Assembly: GCA_041665345.1 (NCBI GenBank)
Contig: JBAYJA010000003.1
Span: 103,202 to 167,201, forward strand
Reading direction: 5' to 3'
DNA from: Patescibacteria group bacterium
GTDB lineage: Bacteria > Patescibacteriota > Patescibacteriia > PEXW01
Length of the DNA stretch: 64,000 bases
Shown here: positions 185-25,788 of the stretch, piece after piece
How positions within the stretch are numbered: the first letter of the stretch is position 1
Layout: every line of letters starts with the position of its first letter
Notes under the pieces: generated by a model
The model's database searches: none
The model's input: the letters and a program-made list of their open reading frames with translations, nothing else
What the model was told of the DNA's origin: nothing
Translations under genes and position numbers: made by a program

Positions 185-461
185 GGAATGTGAGACAGTA
201 TCGCCCCGTCATACGACGAGGGCAGGCAGCCGTATTGGTTTACGGTTTCGTCACTAGGGGTACGAATCGTTTAACGATTTCCTTCCGCCGTAATCCGATA
301 CGGGTGGCGACCCCCTTCACCGAATTTCCCGACTTCGAAAATATGTAGGACTATCAAAAGCCGCACCTGTGCGGCACAAGCAGTGTAGCCGAGTGAAGGC
401 TTTTGGTCAACCATGTATACTGGGAGTGCCTACGGGTCTCACGCTTATCCCACAAACTCCT

Positions 462-815
462 ATGATGCTCCTCCTCCGCTGGGTTATCAATGCACTCCTC
501 GTCCTGCTCATTGCCTACGTTGTGCCAGGAATCCACGTGGCATCGTTCTGGAATGCCCTGTGGGTGGCGGTGGCTTTTGGTATTATCAATGCGGTAGTTC
601 GGCCTATTTTGCTGGTTCTGACCCTGCCGATTTCCCTAATTACCTTGGGTTTATTCACCCTGGTGCTCAATGCGGCGCTCTTCTGGTTCGTCAGTACCGT
701 GGTGAAAGGCTTTACGGTGGATAGTTTTATGGCCGCTTTTGTGGGTTCTTTGATCCTGTGGGTAGCCAGCTTTGTGACTAATCGGCTGCTCCACACCGCC
801 AAAGCAGTGGTCTAG
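462..815 (+). CDS. Small 4-TM membrane protein, DUF360 / phage-holin-4 superfamily-like (YvlD-like)
   Basis: ORF 369..815; hydrophobic core MMLLLRWVINALLVLLIAYVVPGIHV...; the internal ATG at 462 is the likely start (alternative GTG at 369). Confidence 0.55.
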   Translation: MMLLLRWVINALLVLLIAYVVPGIHVASFWNALWVAVAFGIINAVVRPILLVLTLPISLITLGLFTLVLNAALFWFVSTVVKGFTVDSFMAAFVGSLILWVASFVTNRLLHTAKAVV

Positions 816-1624: not shown

Positions 1625-1711
1625 GCCAGGATGGCGGAATTGGTATACGCTGGAGACTTAAAATCTCCCGCCCGTAAGGGATTGAGGGTTCGACTCCCTC
1701 TCCTGGCACCA
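1625..1711 (+). tRNA. tRNA-Leu(UAA), type II, CCA encoded
   Basis: Acceptor gccagga/tcctggc, anticodon loop cttaaaa, long variable arm, T-loop ttcgact, 3' ACCA. Confidence 0.9.
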
Positions 1712-2122: not shown

Positions 2123-2620
2123 ATGTTCTACAACTTCTGTCCAAAGTGCGGACATACATACTCGCATACGGAGAACCCGCACGCACTGGAGTGTAGTCAT
2201 TGCCATTTTACTTTTTTTCAACACTCAAAACCCACTGCGAGTGTGCTCATTGTTGATGGTCGGAAACTCCTGTTAGGCAAACGCCGAGTAGAGCCATCAA
2301 AGGGACAATGGGATGTTATCGGTGGGTTCTTGGAGTATGGCGAATCCCCGTCTGCAGGAGCAGCACGAGAAGCAAAGGAGGAAACTGGCCTCGATGTTGA
2401 GACGCATGATTTCTTAGGCTTTTTTATGGATACGTACGGTTCAGAAAAAGAAGCCACATTGAACATGTGCTTTGTGGGCACTGTTGTGGGCGGTGAACTT
2501 ACGCCAGGTGATGATATTGCAGAACTTCGGTGGTTTGCCATTTCGGATATCCCAAAAGCAATCGCCTTTCAAAATGGCCGCGACATGATTGATGCTTGGC
2601 TAGCGCAACTTTCTCCGTAG
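2123..2620 (+). CDS. NUDIX hydrolase with an N-terminal zinc-ribbon (NudC-like architecture)
   Basis: CPKCGH...CSHCH zinc ribbon; Nudix box GGFLEYGESPSAGAAREAKEETGL. Confidence 0.8.
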   Translation: MFYNFCPKCGHTYSHTENPHALECSHCHFTFFQHSKPTASVLIVDGRKLLLGKRRVEPSKGQWDVIGGFLEYGESPSAGAAREAKEETGLDVETHDFLGFFMDTYGSEKEATLNMCFVGTVVGGELTPGDDIAELRWFAISDIPKAIAFQNGRDMIDAWLAQLSP

Positions 2621-2628
2621 TGGCTTTC

Positions 2629-4440
2629 CTACTCTTCCCAAACGCTAGGTGTTGCGGCAATGTTTGGTGAGCCCGTGTAGCTGATAATTTGATTGGTATC
2701 CTTCGCCGTTATGGGCGCTGGATTTTTGCTCGATGCCTTCTCTTTGAGCCACTGTCCCAGGAGGTGCTTTTGCGATACCTGGTCTACCGCGTAGATTTTT
2801 CCTTCACCATTGCCATTTGCAATGAGTGCCACGGCTTGCATGGCCGCAATGTACATGAGGCTGCGGGTCAGGACAATATCCTCGCTTGGGGTTGCGTCTT
2901 TTTCGCGATCAAAATTAAAGGGGTAGCCGCCGTTGAGTACGGTTAGGGTGAAGCCCGCATGAACGTGCACTTTACGGGCGGCGAAAGGCTCGTTCGTTGG
3001 TAGCCCAAGCTTGAGTATTGAAGCAAATTCAACATCCGCTGAAGAAGCGCTGACCAGAATTTTGTTACCAGCCACTCGCTCAAGCGCAATCCCCTTTAGC
3101 GCATCTGTACCAGTGGTGCTAATCACAACTTCGTTGTCATTGAGCAATGCATCAATTGAGGCAGCGGTATTTTTCAATCCGACAGCAGCGCTAGCATCGT
3201 ATGACTGCGTGGAGAGGTTTTGCTTTTGCAAACAGGCGGCAATGGCTTGGCCAATGCTACCCATACCCAAGATGCCAATTTTTGTGGTGGGCGTCAGGAT
3301 TTTTTCCTGGAGCAGTTTGTCCACAATGGATTGCCCAATGAACTGTGATTCCAGAAGTTTCTTTATCCCGCTGGAGGCAACGCTCACGATGGGTGGGATG
3401 CGAAGGCCGTGGCTGGTAATCCGGGTTATGCCGCGTTGTGTTTGCTCCACTCCCGCAACCCGTACATTCGCCAGCTTGTCCCAGGGGAGGGAGAGCCAAA
3501 TATCACCACCGTCATCCACGATTAGCAGGTTTTTTGCCTTGCTCCGGCCCAGCTCTTCCAAGATTTTTGCCCAGAGGATTTCTACACTCTTCTGCACTGC
3601 GAATTCGTACGGCATGCCAGGTTCCATTCGCACTTGGACAACCTCGCATCCCGCTTGCACCAGGTTGGTGTAGGTTGCGCGCACGGTGGAATAGGGTTTT
3701 TCCAAAACGAACATTCGGCCAAAACCCACCAGGTGTGCTAGATGGCGGAACAATGGCTCATTATTCGGCAGCAAATGCGTGTGGGCGATGATGAGGTAGT
3801 CCCCCAACCGGGATTTCGTGGTGTGGCTCGCGACCCAGTCCAGGAGTGGGAGGGTCGTCAGCGGCTGCGGGACGCGATCGTTCCTGGCTAGCTCGGTAAG
3901 GTATACACGGAAGTCCCCCTGTGATTGGAGCGTTGCAGCACTGAAGAACAGAATTTCCGTGTGCTCATTTGCAACTAGCGTCCAGTCGCCAATATTCCGC
4001 GTGCGCTGCGTCAGCAGCCAATCGCTCGTTTCGAAAAGTCCAAGGAAGTCACCCGTGGAAAGTCGCTTGGTTGCCTTGCCGCCTTTTCGCACAACTACCT
4101 CACCTTTGAGGATGAGTCCCAAAGGGACAAAAGCGTACGTAAAAGCTGGGGTTTCTGGAAAATCGTTCGTCATTTTTCCTTGATCCACAATTGGCTGCAG
4201 TTTTGCATACTGGCCAATGAGAAACCCTTGCTCAGGCGAGTCAATCGCAGCAACTTGAGAAAAAAAAGTTTGCAACGCTTGGACATTTGCTCGCGCGGTA
4301 GAACCTAAGGTGTTGTAGGTCTCCGTAAGCTGCTGCAATAGCAATCCAGCCTGGCCAGCATCCAGTGTTGTGTACGGTTTGGTACGAAGTGCTGTTTCCA
4401 TAGGCTGAGTATAGGTACCCACTGGGAACAAGACAAACAC
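2629..4440 (-). CDS. Fusion protein: cyclic-nucleotide-binding domain plus S-adenosyl-L-homocysteine hydrolase-like (AdoHcyase fold, NAD-binding) domain
   Basis: cNMP motif FVPLGLILKGEVVVRK...TGDFLGLFE; AdoHcyase-like LLIVDDGGD, EQTQRGITRI (cf. TTTGVHRL), IPPIVSVASSG...SIVD (cf. VPAINVNDSV...SLVD), KIGILGMGSIGQAIA (cf. GYGDVGKGCA); GTG start. Confidence 0.6.
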   Translation of the reverse strand: MFVLFPVGTYTQPMETALRTKPYTTLDAGQAGLLLQQLTETYNTLGSTARANVQALQTFFSQVAAIDSPEQGFLIGQYAKLQPIVDQGKMTNDFPETPAFTYAFVPLGLILKGEVVVRKGGKATKRLSTGDFLGLFETSDWLLTQRTRNIGDWTLVANEHTEILFFSAATLQSQGDFRVYLTELARNDRVPQPLTTLPLLDWVASHTTKSRLGDYLIIAHTHLLPNNEPLFRHLAHLVGFGRMFVLEKPYSTVRATYTNLVQAGCEVVQVRMEPGMPYEFAVQKSVEILWAKILEELGRSKAKNLLIVDDGGDIWLSLPWDKLANVRVAGVEQTQRGITRITSHGLRIPPIVSVASSGIKKLLESQFIGQSIVDKLLQEKILTPTTKIGILGMGSIGQAIAACLQKQNLSTQSYDASAAVGLKNTAASIDALLNDNEVVISTTGTDALKGIALERVAGNKILVSASSADVEFASILKLGLPTNEPFAARKVHVHAGFTLTVLNGGYPFNFDREKDATPSEDIVLTRSLMYIAAMQAVALIANGNGEGKIYAVDQVSQKHLLGQWLKEKASSKNPAPITAKDTNQIISYTGSPNIAATPSVWEE

Positions 4441-4476: not shown

Positions 4477-4932
4477 TTAGTTCGTTACCGTCACCGTGCC
4501 CATCATCATGGTCGGGTGGATGTCACAGTGGTAGGGGAAGCTGCCGACGGCGTTGAACGTGAAGGAGAAGGTTTGCCCAGGTGCAATGCGGCTGCTGGCA
4601 AATTCATTTTTATCCCCGGCAATGATATGGGTCACACTGTCATTGTTGGTCCAGGTTACTTTCGTGCCTTTTTTCACGGAGATGGTTTGCGGGCTGAAGG
4701 CGAAGTTCTGCATGTTCACGCTTTCGGTTGCAGTGGTGACGGTAGTGTTCGTTGCAGCTGTATTGGCATTTGCGTTGTCCAGGTTTGACAGGTTCGTGTT
4801 TGCGACAGCAGTATTCACGTTTGCCGAATTCGTCACTGCAGTATTGGTACTGGCCTGCTTACTGCAGGCAGCGGTAACCAGCACAACAGCAAGAGCCAAG
4901 GGAAGAATAGTCATCAAACTGCGCTTGGACAT
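4477..4932 (-). CDS. Cupredoxin (plastocyanin/azurin-like blue-copper) lipoprotein
   Basis: Lipobox LVTAAC; Asn/Thr-rich linker; copper-ligand pattern H...YHCDIHPTMMMGTVTV. Confidence 0.75.
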   Translation of the reverse strand: MSKRSLMTILPLALAVVLVTAACSKQASTNTAVTNSANVNTAVANTNLSNLDNANANTAATNTTVTTATESVNMQNFAFSPQTISVKKGTKVTWTNNDSVTHIIAGDKNEFASSRIAPGQTFSFTFNAVGSFPYHCDIHPTMMMGTVTVTN

Positions 4933-5126: not shown

Positions 5127-6698
5127 CTACCTCCTTATGAGCGAAGTGAGTTTTGCGGTACTTTTTAGTGTGGGTTTCTTCACCATGCGTGCCTCGACCG
5201 TGGCAGTAAATTTTTGGTACTTGGTTTTTTTTGGTGAGGTGAGGCGGACAACGAAGGTCTGCGTTTGACCCGAGACAATGACTGCTGTGGCAGATTTTTT
5301 CTTATTCACGGTTGCGGCCCAACCTTTGGGCAGGTTCGTGACGCGGAGTTCTGCTGTACGCCCTCCGCAGAGCACAGAGTTATGCTTCACGGTGACGTTG
5401 AAGCTGAGTTCTTGGCCGGGTTTCCCAATGCTTTTTATGGCTTTGGCGGTTACGGAGGGTGCTTTCCACTCGCAAAGCGATTCCCCGGTGAACCGCACCC
5501 GAATAGCCATGGCGGATGCATTCCGCGCCAGCACGCCAAAACTGACACCAGCCACGGGGTCGCTATAACTTGAACCAAGCGGCAGCGCTGGGTCGTAGAT
5601 ATCCATACCTCCACGCTGTGAACCCGGGGTCATGTCCAGTATCGTTGAACTGAACCGGGTGCCGGTAGAGTTTCCCATGTGGACGAGAACACCATTTGGT
5701 ACGCCCAATTGCTGCATGGTTGGAATGTAGCCAGTCACATTATCAAATCCGATGGACTGCCGGTATTCCAGGTAGTACCAACTAGTCACGTCGCCGTTGG
5801 CATCGCGAGCCTGGGGAATTTTCAGCACCTTTGGGCCAACGCCTGCGAGTTGGTATGGATATATAGTGAAGTCTTTTGATTGCGTTACCGTAATGACATC
5901 CGCTGGTGGTAGCCAGCCATAGTTCTCCCGTTGCTGCGCCGTCAAGAGCAACGACCGCGAGCCAGTTGCCCCCATGATATTGTAGTGGTCGGCATATTCA
6001 ACCTCCCTGCAGTTCGTGCCATTGATGACGGCCGGTGGGTCACATTGCCAAGAATTCGCGTGCGCCAATCCCATTAAGTGTGCCAGCTCATGGTGTGGAT
6101 TGCTGCCCATATTGCCGTTGATGTCCACAATGCCGTACCGTACATTCCCCGCTTCGGGCACTGGTGTATGCGACGCCAGACCTTCTGCGCCACACAGCTT
6201 CTGCCTGGAGAGCACCATGATCGTGTTGTACTGCGTATAGTCAATATCGGCGTCGGCTGCCGCAATTGCATCGCCGAAGTATGAGGTCCAATCACAGTCC
6301 CCGTCAGTCTCCGTCGCCGGCGTATCAATGACGTACCATGACCCGTTATTGTCGAACACATCGCCAGTGACGGAAACTTCGCCATTGGAAACTTCCGTAA
6401 AATACGAGGCCATGGAGTACGTATTGGAAAAGAGTTCGCCAGTCACAAAATTCTTTGTCCATGGATTTTTGGTACCGTAGATTTTTGGTTTTGTGGGATT
6501 ATCGGTAAAGGTTACCAGGATGACGGCAACTTTATAATTCGGGAAGGCTTCCAAGTAATTGTAACTAGTTGGAGCCGCCACGTAGCCTGCTTTCACCTGC
6601 AAGGGGAAAAGGAGTATTGCGATACACGTGACGAATACGCCGGTAGCGATGATTTTTTGGAGGGAGCGTGTGTATTGGTTCATGAAACTAGTATACAC
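5127..6698 (-). CDS. Secreted metzincin-type zinc metalloprotease
   Basis: Signal peptide; HELAHLMGLAH = HExxHxxGxxH; 523 aa. Confidence 0.7.
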   Translation of the reverse strand: MYTSFMNQYTRSLQKIIATGVFVTCIAILLFPLQVKAGYVAAPTSYNYLEAFPNYKVAVILVTFTDNPTKPKIYGTKNPWTKNFVTGELFSNTYSMASYFTEVSNGEVSVTGDVFDNNGSWYVIDTPATETDGDCDWTSYFGDAIAAADADIDYTQYNTIMVLSRQKLCGAEGLASHTPVPEAGNVRYGIVDINGNMGSNPHHELAHLMGLAHANSWQCDPPAVINGTNCREVEYADHYNIMGATGSRSLLLTAQQRENYGWLPPADVITVTQSKDFTIYPYQLAGVGPKVLKIPQARDANGDVTSWYYLEYRQSIGFDNVTGYIPTMQQLGVPNGVLVHMGNSTGTRFSSTILDMTPGSQRGGMDIYDPALPLGSSYSDPVAGVSFGVLARNASAMAIRVRFTGESLCEWKAPSVTAKAIKSIGKPGQELSFNVTVKHNSVLCGGRTAELRVTNLPKGWAATVNKKKSATAVIVSGQTQTFVVRLTSPKKTKYQKFTATVEARMVKKPTLKSTAKLTSLIRR

Positions 6699-7058: not shown

Positions 7059-7133
7059 TGGAGCGGGTGATGGGATTCGCACCCACGGCCTCTTCCTTGG
7101 CAAGGAAGCGTTCTACTGCTGAACTACACCCGC
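7059..7133 (-). tRNA. tRNA-Gly(GCC), CCA encoded
   Basis: rc gcgggtgtagttcagcagtagaacgcttccttgccaaggaag...gtgggtgcgaatcccatcacccgctcca; anticodon loop ttgccaa. Confidence 0.9.
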
Positions 7134-7325: not shown

Positions 7326-7400
7326 TGGAGGCCACGGGCGGGATCGAACCGCCGAATAAGGGTTTTGCAGACCCTCGCCTTACCACTTGGCTACGTGGCC
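7326..7400 (-). tRNA. tRNA-Cys(GCA), discriminator U, CCA encoded
   Basis: rc ggccacgtagccaagtggtaaggcgagggtctgcaaaacccttattcggcggttcgatcccgcccgtggcctcca. Confidence 0.9.
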
Positions 7401-24926: not shown

Positions 24927-25343
24927 TTAAGGACGAAACCCCTGCTCCCGCAAATGGGTAATGGGCAGGAACAGTGGTTCAGGTAGTTTATCCCAGCCAA
25001 ACCATTCCCAGCGCTCGCACTTCTCAGGTTCCAGAACTTGCGGCTCTTTGCTCACCCAGTCAGCAATGACGTACAAGGTAATGTAGTGCTTTCCTTCGTT
25101 TTCGTGGACATCATTGGTGTATGGCCCGCGGCGGAGATTGGCTATTTCTACCCCACACTCCTCAGCCACTTCTCGCAAAGCGCATTCTTCCGGGGTTTCA
25201 CCATACTCCAAATGTCCCCCTGGAAAAGCCCACGTTCCATTACCGTGGAGACTCTTTCGTTTCTGCAAGAGGACCTTGCCATCTTTCATGACAATAACCC
25301 CAACGCCTACACGAGGTCGATTTGTAGGTACCACATCAGCCAT
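24927..25343 (-). CDS. NUDIX hydrolase (MutT-like)
   Basis: Nudix box GGHLEYGETPEECALREVAEECGV; start taken at MADVV (rc ATG at 25341-25343). Confidence 0.8.
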   Translation of the reverse strand: MADVVPTNRPRVGVGVIVMKDGKVLLQKRKSLHGNGTWAFPGGHLEYGETPEECALREVAEECGVEIANLRRGPYTNDVHENEGKHYITLYVIADWVSKEPQVLEPEKCERWEWFGWDKLPEPLFLPITHLREQGFRP

Positions 25344-25347
25344 ACAA

Positions 25348-25788
25348 TTATTTGTTGCGTTTGAGAAACGCCTCAAACGCGGGAATGAGGTTTGGGATGA
25401 GATTGTACTTTTGGAAGTCTTTCGGATCAATCCACTGTGCGTCATCATGGTCTTGGCTCAGAGTAACTGCGTCAGTGCTCGTTTCACACACAAAAAACGT
25501 TGCCACCACTTGCCAGGGTTCACCTTTGACCACTGGCCGCCACTCATCTACATGGAAAGGTTGGCCAAGGGTTACTTCCAAACCTGTCTCCTCCCGGATT
25601 TCTCGGCGCAGGCTTTCATCAAAGCGTTCACCGGGTGGAATGCGGCCGCCCACAATGTCATACCGGGCGGCATTGGTACCCTCCTCATACTTTTTTGACT
25701 CACGGAGAATAAGCACCTTTCCATTGAAGGTGATGAAAGCTTTCATGGCCACGAAGATTTTTGGAGTCATACAAATAGTGTACAACAA
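25348..25788 (-). CDS. NUDIX hydrolase
   Basis: GGRIPPGERFDESLRREIREETGL Nudix box. Confidence 0.8.
   Translation of the reverse strand: MLYTICMTPKIFVAMKAFITFNGKVLILRESKKYEEGTNAARYDIVGGRIPPGERFDESLRREIREETGLEVTLGQPFHVDEWRPVVKGEPWQVVATFFVCETSTDAVTLSQDHDDAQWIDPKDFQKYNLIPNLIPAFEAFLKRNK

What the first reader, a model, noticed from the sequence alone, without database searches (positions are those of the whole stretch)
2629..4440. Cyclic-nucleotide-binding domain fused to an S-adenosylhomocysteine-hydrolase-like domain
The product combines a cNMP-binding beta-barrel signature with a domain that tracks AdoHcyase motif by motif (DDGGD, TTTGV-like, VPAINVNDSV-like, GYGDVGKG-like Rossmann). The exact residues diverge, which could mean a regulatory or altered-specificity enzyme. 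A cNMP-gated AdoHcyase-fold protein is not a standard architecture. It could link second-messenger signalling to methylation potential or to nucleoside metabolism (a NUDIX gene lies just upstream).
Basis: partly seen in the sequence, partly recalled or inferred. Interest (0 to 1): 0.55.

Follow-up and report, generated by a model that had tools for sequence, protein, structure and literature searches.

The report
CNB-like domain fused to gate-less SAHH-like enzyme
This gene from a Patescibacteria genome really does encode a cyclic-nucleotide-binding-type fold fused to an S-adenosylhomocysteine-hydrolase-type fold, but it belongs to an undescribed enzyme family that repeatedly pairs with one particular methyltransferase, and nothing in its sequence shows that cAMP or cGMP controls it.

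Summary
The ORF at 2629-4440 (minus strand; likely start ATG 4401, 590 aa) is a real, conserved gene. It has more than 140 full-length homologs, almost all in Patescibacteria.

Structure prediction (pLDDT 90) and fold search confirm both halves:
- Residues ~20-190 form a cyclic-nucleotide-binding (CNB) fold.
- Residues ~195-603 form a two-domain SAHH fold.

Neither half is a curated-family member. No Pfam or NCBIfam model reaches threshold.
- The CNB phosphate-binding cassette is remodelled.
- The SAHH-like half keeps the chemistry residues (His55, Asp131, Lys186, Asp190→Glu) and the NAD-binding signature.
- It lacks the His-Phe gate, both Lys-tuning Asn residues and the adenine-recognition residues.

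This signature is universal across a wider, unnamed SAHH-like superfamily in many phyla.

The CNB-like domain occurs in only 47 of 1.84 billion representative proteins. It is either fused to this enzyme or sits in a partner protein encoded beside it.

A HemK2/MTQ2-like methyltransferase is fused or adjacent in 12 of 71 loci, and ECF transporter genes flank 10.

Best reading: an NAD-dependent SAHH-type enzyme acting on SAH or a related 5'-substituted ribonucleoside, with a dedicated CNB-like subunit. Canonical cNMP gating and the NUDIX link are unsupported.

The parts
2629..4401 (-). Gene (590 aa from ATG at 4401; the mechanical ORF extends to GTG at 4440)
   Evidence: P0001 is 100% identical, 590 aa; homologs begin near residue 14-20. 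The promoter-like site at 4436-4408 lies 6 nt upstream of the ATG.
3871..4383 (-). CNB-like domain (residues ~20-190): N-terminal helices, eight-stranded beta-roll and alphaB/alphaC helices
   Evidence: AF2 pLDDT 90. The top 50 Foldseek hits are all CNBD/CNBHD. Weak cNMP_binding and Cupin_3 hits occur in family members.
3970..4053 (-). Remodelled phosphate-binding-cassette region GDFLGLFETSDWLLTQRTRNIGDWTLVA (residues 130-157). G130, D131, G134, F136, E137, G151 and W153 are invariant; R148 is conserved in at least 90% of members.
   Evidence: for conservation. The alignment to PfPKA-R shows a 4-residue insertion in the cassette helix and a 3-residue insertion after the Arg. Coordinates verified.
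3835..3873 (-). Conserved linker VPQPLTTLPLLDW joining the two modules
   Evidence: P191, L199, L200 and D201 are invariant. Coordinates verified.
3334..3834 (-). SAHH-like substrate-binding domain, first part (residues ~203-369). Contains H222 (=His55), Y250-S251, DDGGD 309-313 (=Asp130/131), EQTQRG 332-337 (=EETTTG) and K360/E364 (=Lys186/Asp190).
2911..3333 (-). Rossmann NAD-binding domain (residues ~370-510). Contains GMGSIG 392-397, D415 at the end of beta2, TTG 442-444, SASS 464-467 (replacing NIGH of the GHF gate motif), E471, and NGGYPFN 503-509 (N509 = Asn346).
2632..2910 (-). Return to the substrate-binding domain plus the family-specific C-terminal tail ending PSVWEE (W601 conserved in Patescibacteria, tail absent in distant relatives)

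Best explanation
The gene encodes a fused two-module protein of an undescribed family.

**Enzyme module (residues ~195-603).** This is a divergent SAHH-fold enzyme. It most likely holds NAD+ as a catalytic cofactor. It most likely carries out SAHH-type chemistry, meaning 3'-oxidation of a ribose followed by C4' deprotonation and beta-elimination or exchange at C5'. The substrate would be S-adenosylhomocysteine or a closely related 5'-substituted ribonucleoside. Because the His-Phe gate and the adenine-recognition residues are replaced, gating and substrate preference should differ from housekeeping SAHH.

**CNB-like module (residues ~20-190).** This is a dedicated companion of the enzyme. In other phyla it is the N-terminal domain of a separate protein encoded next to the enzyme gene. 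It probably acts as a regulatory, lid or assembly subunit that binds a still-unknown small ligand. It is not a canonical cAMP/cGMP sensor.

**Partner.** The enzyme works functionally with a HemK2/MTQ2-like SAM-dependent N-methyltransferase. It either clears or uses that enzyme's adenosyl by-product, or processes the same substrate.

**Shown:** the folds, the residue conservation, and the fusion, adjacency and co-occurrence pattern.
**Inferred:** NAD binding, catalysis, substrate identity and the role of the CNB-like module.
For: Fold:
- Foldseek top 50 hits are all SAHH, E down to 1e-16 over about 415 columns.
- The family profile finds SAHH/AHCYL first.

Chemistry residues. The SAHH review PMC13406329 assigns catalysis to three residues: Lys as the 3'-OH base, Asp as the C4'-H base, and His as the proton donor to sulfur. 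Their equivalents K360, D310 and H222 are conserved in all 17 Patescibacterial sequences. In the 53 distant family sequences K360 and H222 are invariant, and position 310 is D in 39, E in 12 and H in 2. E364 (=Asp190), T334 (=Thr157), N509 (=Asn346), GxGxxG and D415 are conserved as well. Such strict conservation of polar active-site residues across phyla argues for an active enzyme.

Methyltransferase link:
- One specific MTS-type methyltransferase is fused N- or C-terminally in P0116, L023, L024, L026, L035, L036, L043, L054, P0149, P0153, P0164, P0168 and P0169.
- It is directly adjacent in L004/L013, L010, L012, L014 and L031.
- One relative instead carries a radical-SAM domain.

CNB-like module as a dedicated partner:
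- It was found in only 47 of 1.84e9 representative proteins, and 46 of these are fragments, fusions to the SAHH-like enzyme, or the adjacent partner protein.
- The partner's N-terminus is homologous to it (hhalign 95%, E 4e-8).
- The partner is adjacent to the enzyme gene in at least 12 loci.
- The full-length model has pTM 0.90, which implies a fixed packing of the two modules.
Against: - No methyltransferase of this type lies in the 64-kb window. Twelve of the 16 Patescibacterial loci scanned lack it within 8 kb. The link is therefore by homology for this gene.
- Several features conserved in every true SAHH are missing: Asn181 is Ala, Asn191 is Ser, Glu156 is Gln, and the GHF gate is SSA. 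Hydrolysis of SAH itself may therefore be impaired.
- Relatives occur in lineages such as Bradyrhizobium, whose canonical SAHH has been crystallised (BeSAHH, per PMC13406329). Whether the hosts of these loci carry their own canonical SAHH was not tested. If they do, simple SAH clearance would be redundant there.
Confidence: 0.5

Rival explanations
1. cNMP-gated SAH hydrolase. The N-terminal domain binds cAMP or cGMP and allosterically switches a genuine adenosylhomocysteinase, coupling second-messenger signalling to methylation potential.
For: - The N-terminal domain has a CNB fold.
- A Gly, a Glu and an Arg are conserved in the cassette region (G134, E137, R148).
- Some family members give weak cNMP_binding hits.
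- The catalytic Lys, Asp and His are retained.
Against: - The cassette carries two insertions and lacks GE...R[ST]A.
- The window protein has no cNMP_binding hit even at E <= 10.
- Only one canonical cNMP-binding protein matched the domain profile at E <= 0.001 in 1.84e9 proteins.
- The domain never appears in other signalling architectures.
- SAHH hallmark residues (gate, Asn181, Asn191, adenine contacts) are replaced.
Confidence: 0.1
2. Non-catalytic sensor or scaffold (a pseudoenzyme analogous to AHCYL/IRBIT). The SAHH-like module only binds NAD(H) and/or SAH or adenosine. It regulates or stabilises the partner methyltransferase, much as Trm112 activates HemK2/Mtq2 enzymes.
For: - Loss of the His-Phe gate, Asn181, Asn191 and Glu156.
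- The profile search ranks the non-hydrolytic AHCYL2/AHCYL1 structures among the top hits (3gvp, 3mtg).
- The protein is physically fused to the methyltransferase in many relatives.
Against: The catalytic Lys and His equivalents are invariant, the Asp equivalent is nearly so (D or E in 68 of 70), and E364, T334, N509 and the NGG[FY]PxNFD motif are conserved, across 70 sequences from many phyla. This is atypical for a degenerate pseudoenzyme. Most family members are not fused to the methyltransferase.
Confidence: 0.17
3. Enzyme of a dedicated small-molecule pathway unrelated to SAH disposal. It oxidises, cleaves or condenses a different ribose-containing metabolite, possibly one imported by the associated ECF transporter and N-methylated by the partner methyltransferase. 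It would be making or salvaging a modified nucleoside or thioether.
For: - ECF S, T and A genes lie immediately upstream in 10 loci.
- An MFS transporter lies next to the radical-SAM fusion.
- The base-recognition residues Thr57, Glu59, Thr60 and His353 are all replaced while the ribose-side residues are kept.
- Relatives occur in lineages such as Bradyrhizobium whose canonical SAHH has been crystallised (per PMC13406329); canonical SAHH in these particular hosts was not tested.
Against: - No riboswitch or other clue to the substrate was found.
- The Patescibacterial loci, including this window, have no transporter or methyltransferase nearby in most cases.
- The recurrent association with SAM-using enzymes is most simply explained by SAH or an adenosyl product.
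Confidence: 0.2
4. An ordinary D-2-hydroxyacid dehydrogenase-type oxidoreductase with an N-terminal cupin-like domain.
For: - The best Pfam hit is 2-Hacid_dh_C (22 bits, residues 386-442).
- PF02826 is precomputed for most homologs.
- Cupin_3 gives weak hits in 13 of 34 N-terminal domains.
Against: - The Pfam hit covers only the beta-alpha-beta core and is below the 25.1-bit cutoff.
- 2-HADH structures match only profile positions ~360-440, whereas SAHH matches 191-493 including the catalytic-domain motifs.
- All 50 best structural neighbours are SAHH, and for the N-terminal domain all 50 are CNB domains.
Confidence: 0.03

Closest known systems
[quoted passage not shown] PDB 1LI4, 3X2F, 7R39)
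   Same: - Same two-domain fold, with a substrate-binding domain and a Rossmann NAD domain.
- Same motif order: H..DDGGD..E-x-T..G..K...[DE]..GxGxxG..acid..TTG..N.
- The catalytic Lys186, Asp131 and His55 equivalents are conserved.
   Different: - 15-19% identity, and no curated SAHH model reaches threshold.
- Glu156 is Gln, Asn181 is Ala, Asn191 is Ser.
- The GHF His-Phe gate is replaced by S-S-A.
- Thr57/Glu59/Thr60 are Leu/Asn/Asn, and His353 is absent.
- There is no Lys/Tyr C-terminal NAD clamp.
- A CNB-like domain replaces the first ~25-50 residues of SAHH.
AHCYL1/AHCYL2 (IRBIT; SAHH-like proteins with an added N-terminal regulatory region; PDB 3MTG, 3GVP)
   Same: Both are SAHH folds carrying an extra N-terminal module and not known to act as a housekeeping hydrolase. 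These structures are the top profile hits in PDB.
   Different: AHCYL proteins are eukaryotic, with a disordered phosphorylated N-terminal region rather than a folded CNB-like domain. They keep most SAHH residues. There is no evidence of shared ancestry beyond the SAHH fold.
Cyclic-nucleotide-binding domains and CNB-homology domains (Pfam PF00027; PKA-R, PKG, CAP, MloK1, KCNH CNBHD)
   Same: Same beta-roll with flanking helices. The GD-x-x-G turn before the cassette and a conserved Arg are retained.
   Different: The cassette helix is about 10 residues long, with a 4-residue insertion and a further 3-residue insertion after the Arg. The R[ST]A element is replaced by R-x-I-G-D-W. The domain is not detectable as PF00027 in the window protein. 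It is restricted to a single enzyme context. Like the KCNH CNBHD or the many Crp/Fnr-type domains, it may bind something other than a cNMP, or nothing.
HemK2/MTQ2-type and MTS (PF05175) methyltransferases (the partner, not the query)
   Same: The partner enzyme fused to or adjacent to family members matches MTS, PrmA and HemK2/MTQ2 models and has an N-L-P-Y motif IV resembling NPPY.
   Different: It scores below the NCBIfam cutoffs (89 bits against 162, and 68 against 87). It has a family-specific N-terminal LPGVMSPxYDW motif. Its substrate is unknown. It is not present in this window.

Membership tests
SAHH (adenosylhomocysteinase) | Two-domain SAHH fold (substrate-binding plus NAD-binding Rossmann domain) | tested here: met
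   Foldseek E 1e-16, target-normalised TM 0.74, about 415 aligned columns, and all top 50 hits are SAHH.
SAHH (adenosylhomocysteinase) | Match to curated family models (PF05221, PF00670, TIGR00936, NF004008) above threshold | tested here: not met
   No AdoHcyase Pfam hit at E <= 10. NF004008 scores 14.9 bits against a cutoff of 440.
SAHH (adenosylhomocysteinase) | Catalytic Lys186, Asp131 and His55 (plus Asp190) | tested here: met
   K360, D310, H222 and E364. K360, H222 and E364 are invariant in all 70 family sequences. Position 310 is D or E in 68 of 70 and H in 2. Roles are taken from PMC13406329.
SAHH (adenosylhomocysteinase) | Lys-tuning Asn181 and Asn191, and Glu156 | tested here: not met
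   The equivalents are A355, S365 and Q333.
SAHH (adenosylhomocysteinase) | GHF motif: His301-Phe302 molecular gate | tested here: not met
   S466-S467-A468 aligns to G300-H301-F302. S467 is conserved family-wide, 69 of 70 sequences.
SAHH (adenosylhomocysteinase) | NAD-binding signature (GxGxxG, acidic residue after beta2, Thr157, Asn346) | tested here: met
   G392/G394/G397, D415, T334 and N509 are conserved. Actual NAD binding cannot be tested with these tools.
SAHH (adenosylhomocysteinase) | Adenine-recognition residues (Thr57, Glu59, Thr60, His353) and the C-terminal Lys426/Tyr430 clamp | tested here: not met
   The equivalents are L224, N226 and N227. There is no His at the His353 position. 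The tail ends PSVWEE with no Lys/Tyr pair.
SAHH (adenosylhomocysteinase) | Reversible hydrolysis of SAH to adenosine and homocysteine | not testable with these tools
   Requires an enzyme assay.
Cyclic-nucleotide-binding domain (PF00027) | Beta-roll with alphaA, alphaB and alphaC helices | tested here: met
   AF2 pLDDT 90. All top 50 Foldseek hits are CNBD/CNBHD.
Cyclic-nucleotide-binding domain (PF00027) | Pfam model at or above the gathering score | tested here: not met
   No hit for the window protein. Twelve of 34 family members match, best E 4e-4.
Cyclic-nucleotide-binding domain (PF00027) | Phosphate-binding cassette G-E-x-A...R-[ST]-A of canonical length | tested here: not met
   GLFETSDWLLT...R-N-I-G-D-W carries 4- and 3-residue insertions relative to PfPKA-R.
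Cyclic-nucleotide-binding domain (PF00027) | Binding of cAMP or cGMP | not testable with these tools
   Requires a binding assay or a co-structure.
D-isomer-specific 2-hydroxyacid dehydrogenase | Match to the NAD-domain model PF02826 and the catalytic-domain model PF00389 | tested here: not met
   PF02826 scores 22.1 bits, below the 25.1 cutoff, and covers only 57 residues. PF00389 gives no hit. 2-HADH structures align only to the Rossmann core.

The most novel reading that the evidence does not exclude
The protein is the fused core of a previously unrecognised multi-component system. The components are a gate-less SAHH-like NAD enzyme, a dedicated CNB-like ligand-binding subunit, a HemK2-like N-methyltransferase and, in many bacteria, the system's own ECF importer. 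The system makes, salvages or destroys a so-far unknown modified nucleoside or adenosyl-thioether metabolite. The CNB-like fold would have been re-purposed to sense an adenosyl compound (SAM, SAH or the pathway product) rather than a cyclic nucleotide.
Probability: 0.25. Interest if true: 0.8.

Novelty: new variant of a known kind. Interest (0 to 1): 0.6.

Why it matters
SAHH is regarded as one of the most conserved enzymes, with invariant catalytic and gating residues. A widespread sister family that keeps the chemistry residues but discards the gate, the Lys-tuning asparagines and the adenine contacts would extend what this fold is known to do. The same family has acquired its own CNB-type subunit and a dedicated methyltransferase.

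Patescibacteria have tiny, scavenging metabolisms. For them this family could be the missing route for handling SAH or related nucleosides.

The family also provides another case of a CNB fold that has probably been re-purposed away from cyclic nucleotides.

It is directly testable, because the protein is soluble-looking, is predicted with high confidence, and has clear mutational targets.

Tried and rejected
1. **Operon inference in the window.** The neighbours are a convergent NUDIX gene, a cupredoxin, a 523-aa HExxH protein and DHODH. They are unrelated and are not conserved next to homologs.
2. **Riboswitch search** on eight ECF-containing loci and on the window. Only tRNAs were found.
3. 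**Anti-phage defence libraries.** There was no PADLOC hit for the SAHH-like or partner proteins. The mad2 and mad3 hits of the methyltransferase and the ABC ATPase are generic family similarity.
4. **Partner-protein C-terminal domain.** No Pfam or PDB match.
5. **Literature searches** for the architecture, or for SAHH-like proteins in Patescibacteria or the candidate phyla radiation, returned nothing relevant.
7. **hhalign of the CNB-like profile against a canonical three-CNB protein.** It aligned only to that protein's degenerate middle domain and was uninformative for the cassette.
8. **Weak N-terminal similarity to allophycocyanin beta** (E 0.07-1). Dismissed as chance, because it falls in the helical N-terminal segment and is not supported by the structure.
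9. **2-hydroxyacid dehydrogenase assignment.** Considered and rejected (see rivals).
Full report
**1. The observation**

The window holds an uninterrupted ORF on the minus strand, 2629..4440 (603 aa from a GTG).
- The identical database protein (P0001, a Patescibacteria MAG, named 'hypothetical protein') is 590 aa and starts at Met14, the ATG at 4401.
- Homologs begin at about that position.
- A -35/-10-like pair (TTGTCT-17-TATACT, 4436-4408) ends 6 nt before that ATG.
- I therefore take 2629..4401 as the gene.
- It is a real gene. At least 142 homologs of about 590 aa share 40-58% identity over the full length, with dozens of invariant columns.

**2. The C-terminal two-thirds is an SAHH fold**

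The evidence builds from weak to strong:
- The sequence alone gives only sub-threshold Rossmann hits in Pfam (2-Hacid_dh_C, 22 bits, residues 386-442) and a 15-bit AdoHcyase hit in NCBIfam.
- phmmer against PDB already picks an adenosylhomocysteinase (7r39, E 1.5e-4), with DDGGD, EETTTG and GYGxVG aligned.
- A 43-sequence family profile finds SAHH/AHCYL structures first (3gvp, E 1e-10, profile positions 191-455). The 2-hydroxyacid dehydrogenases match only the Rossmann core.
- AlphaFold2 with the family alignment gives pLDDT 90.5 and pTM 0.90.
- Foldseek against PDB returns SAHH for all 50 top hits (E 1e-16 to 7e-13, about 415 aligned columns, target-normalised TM up to 0.74, 14-19% identity).

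Residue mapping uses human numbering. My recalled human sequence was verified as identical to 1LI4 chain A, and the mapping comes from hhalign and hmmsearch.

| Window residue | Human SAHH equivalent |
|---|---|
| H222 | His55 |
| D309-D310-G-G-D313 | Asp130-Asp131-G-G-Asp134 |
| E332 / Q333 / T334 | Glu155 / Glu156 / Thr157 |
| A355 | Asn181 |
| K360 | Lys186 |
| E364 | Asp190 |
| S365 | Asn191 |
| G392xG394xxG397 | GYGDVG |
| D415 | acidic residue after beta2 |
| T442-T443-G444 | TTG |
| S466-S467-A468 | Gly300-His301-Phe302 |
| N509 | Asn346 |

The 2026 SAHH review (PMC13406329) describes these roles:
- Lys abstracts the 3'-OH proton.
- Asp abstracts the C4' proton.
- His protonates the leaving sulfur.
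- Two Asn residues and the Glu backbone tune the Lys.
- The His-Phe pair of the GHF motif is the molecular gate for the homocysteine channel.
- Lys426 and Tyr430 in the C-terminal tail clamp NAD.

In this family, the residues that do the chemistry and the NAD signature are kept. The two tuning Asn residues, the gate, the adenine contacts (Thr57/Glu59/Thr60 become L224/N226/N227, and no His sits at position 353) and the Lys/Tyr clamp are all replaced.

**3. The N-terminal third is a CNB fold with a non-canonical cassette**

- The separately modelled residues 20-200 have pLDDT 90.
- Foldseek returns only cyclic-nucleotide-binding or CNB-homology domains in the top 50: CNG channels, PKA-R, PKG, MloK1, EAG/ELK, CAP and PycTIR (E 1e-5 to 1e-4, TM 0.4-0.6).
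- At the sequence level the window protein has no cNMP_binding hit. Twelve of 34 family members have weak hits, best E 4e-4. PDB profile hits are all CNB domains but at E 0.06-1.
- The alignment to PfPKA-R places GDFIGLFETSDWLLTkkkRqIGDWTL opposite GDYFGEL----ALLKNKPRAA---TI.
- So the cassette helix is 4 residues longer, there are 3 extra residues after the Arg, and R[ST]A is replaced by R-x-I-G-D-W.
- This remodelled motif is itself almost invariant in the family. That points to a conserved but different site.

**4. The family is part of a wider, unnamed module**

A scan of one genome per species returned 79 loci.
- Seventeen are full-length orthologs in Patescibacteria (Berkelbacteria, Parcubacteria, Moranbacteria, Paceibacterota, Saccharibacteria).
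- The rest are relatives at 23-35% identity that match only residues ~190-570. They come from Proteobacteria, Actinomycetes, Acidobacteriota, Nitrospirota, Verrucomicrobiota, Cyanobacteriota, Bacteroidota and Woesearchaeota.
- A representative of the distant group aligns to the family profile at hhalign E 1.5e-41.

Across 17 Patescibacterial and 53 distant sequences the following signature is universal or nearly so: H222, Y250, D309, [DE]310, G311, E332, Q333, T334, G337, V354-A355, S357, K360, E364, GxGxxG, D415, S464, S466, S467, E471, NGG[FY]PxNFD, T525 and Q535.

Three associations recur.

(a) A specific MTS/HemK2-MTQ2-like methyltransferase (LPGVMSPxYDW...NLPYH):
- It is fused N-terminally (P0116, L023, L024, P0149, P0169) or C-terminally (L026, L035, L036, L043, L054, P0153, P0164, P0168).
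- It is directly adjacent in L004/L013, L010, L012, L014 and L031.
- That makes 12 of 71 full-length loci.
- The adjacent and fused methyltransferases are orthologous (39% identity, E 5e-54).

(b) A 420-470-aa partner protein:
- Its N-terminus is homologous to the CNB-like domain (hhalign 95%, E 4e-8).
- It is encoded immediately next to the stand-alone enzyme in at least 12 loci.
- L026 and L024 carry CNB-like, SAHH-like and methyltransferase modules in one polypeptide.

(c) ECF-type transporter genes (a CD3073-like S component, a T component and an ATPase) lie directly upstream in 10 loci.

One relative joins the CNB-like domain and part of the SAHH-like domain to a radical-SAM domain.

An exhaustive HMMER search of 1.84 billion representative proteins with the CNB-like profile found only 47 proteins at E <= 0.001.
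- All but one are fragments, fusions to the SAHH-like enzyme, or the partner protein.
- The exception is a canonical triple-CNB protein at E 1.7e-4.

**5. Context in this window**

- The neighbours are a convergent NUDIX gene (2123-2620, + strand), a cupredoxin lipoprotein, a 523-aa HExxH protein and dihydroorotate dehydrogenase.
- None of these is conserved beside homologs. A NUDIX neighbour appears in only one other locus.
- The 64-kb window has no methyltransferase of the partner type, no partner protein and no canonical SAHH.
- No riboswitch was found in the window.

**6. Interpretation**

Shown:
- The architecture and the folds.
- The family-specific active-site signature.
- The exclusive association of the CNB-like domain with this enzyme.
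- The repeated fusion or adjacency with SAM-dependent enzymes.

Inferred:
- The protein binds NAD and catalyses SAHH-type oxidation-assisted elimination or exchange at C5' of a ribonucleoside. The substrate would be SAH or a near relative, such as the by-product or substrate of the partner methyltransferase.
- Gating and base specificity are altered.
- The CNB-like domain is a dedicated regulatory, lid or assembly module with an unknown ligand.

The canonical cAMP/cGMP-gating model is not excluded, but nothing specific supports it.

The pseudoenzyme reading is weakened by the strict conservation of the catalytic residue equivalents across phyla.

The 'different substrate in a dedicated pathway' reading is favoured by three points. 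The proteobacterial operons include ECF transporter genes, relatives occur in lineages with a known canonical SAHH such as Bradyrhizobium (whether these hosts carry one was not tested), and the base contacts are replaced. It is the main rival.

**7. Novelty and verdict**

- No curated model (Pfam, NCBIfam, PADLOC) reached its threshold, and no paper in the searchable library describes the family.
- Database names are 'hypothetical protein', 'NAD(P)-dependent oxidoreductase' or an automatic 'Adenosylhomocysteinase'.
- I rate it a new variant of a known kind: an SAHH-fold enzyme with a new signature and a dedicated CNB-like subunit.
- The finding is real and moderately to highly interesting.

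Noticed in passing
window 4477-4932 (-): A lipoprotein-like cupredoxin (plastocyanin/azurin family, PF00127, E 2e-11) lies directly upstream of the target gene on the same strand. This is an unusual find in a Patescibacteria genome. It is not conserved next to homologs of the target.
   Followed up: partly
window 5127-6698 (-): A 523-aa protein with an N-terminal hydrophobic segment and an HELAHLMGLAH (HExxH) metalloprotease-like motif. It has no Pfam hit.
   Followed up: no
window 4408-4436 (-): The promoter-like site TTGTCT-17-TATACT ends 6 nt before the ATG at 4401. This suggests the 590-aa start and a near-leaderless transcript. The mechanical GTG start at 4440 is probably not used.
   Followed up: partly
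window 2123-2620 (+) and 24927-25448 (-): Two NUDIX paralogs (28% identity). The first is convergent with the target gene, with 8 nt between the two stop codons. It is not an operon partner.
   Followed up: partly
window 369-815 (+): A Phage_holin_4_2 family membrane protein (E 3e-31). tRNA genes lie nearby at 1625-1708 (+), 7062-7133 (-) and 7329-7400 (-).
   Followed up: no
L030:6446-7846, L041:9296-10558 and nine others (alignment A3): The partner protein family is encoded beside stand-alone SAHH-like genes. It has the CNB-like N-terminal domain plus a ~250-aa C-terminal domain with conserved Trp and Pro positions. That C-terminal domain has no Pfam or PDB match at all.
   Followed up: partly
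L031:5387-7931, L035:4061-6457 and eight other loci: An ECF-type transporter lies immediately upstream of the SAHH-like and methyltransferase genes in Proteobacteria, Nitrospirota and Verrucomicrobiota. It comprises a CD3073-like S component, a T component and an ATPase with a ~190-residue N-terminal extension. No riboswitch was found upstream.
   Followed up: partly
L085:6001-8529 (P0166): An 842-aa protein combines the CNB-like domain, part of the SAHH-like substrate-binding domain and a radical-SAM domain. An MFS transporter gene follows it.
   Followed up: partly
L049:7209-9110 and P0139: Some distant SAHH-like members give weak hits to HcgC (PF06690). HcgC is named in Pfam as a methyltransferase of FeGP cofactor biosynthesis. 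The hits might mean that the Rossmann domain of some relatives binds SAM or SAH rather than NAD.
   Followed up: no
L031:3602-4825, L030:9243-9737, L045:4159-4545: Several proteobacterial loci of the distant relatives sit next to mobile or conflict-type genes: a HipA toxin, plus ORFs resembling a tyrosine-recombinase fragment and an IS transposase, judged by eye only. This hints at island-borne spread of the stand-alone module.
   Followed up: no
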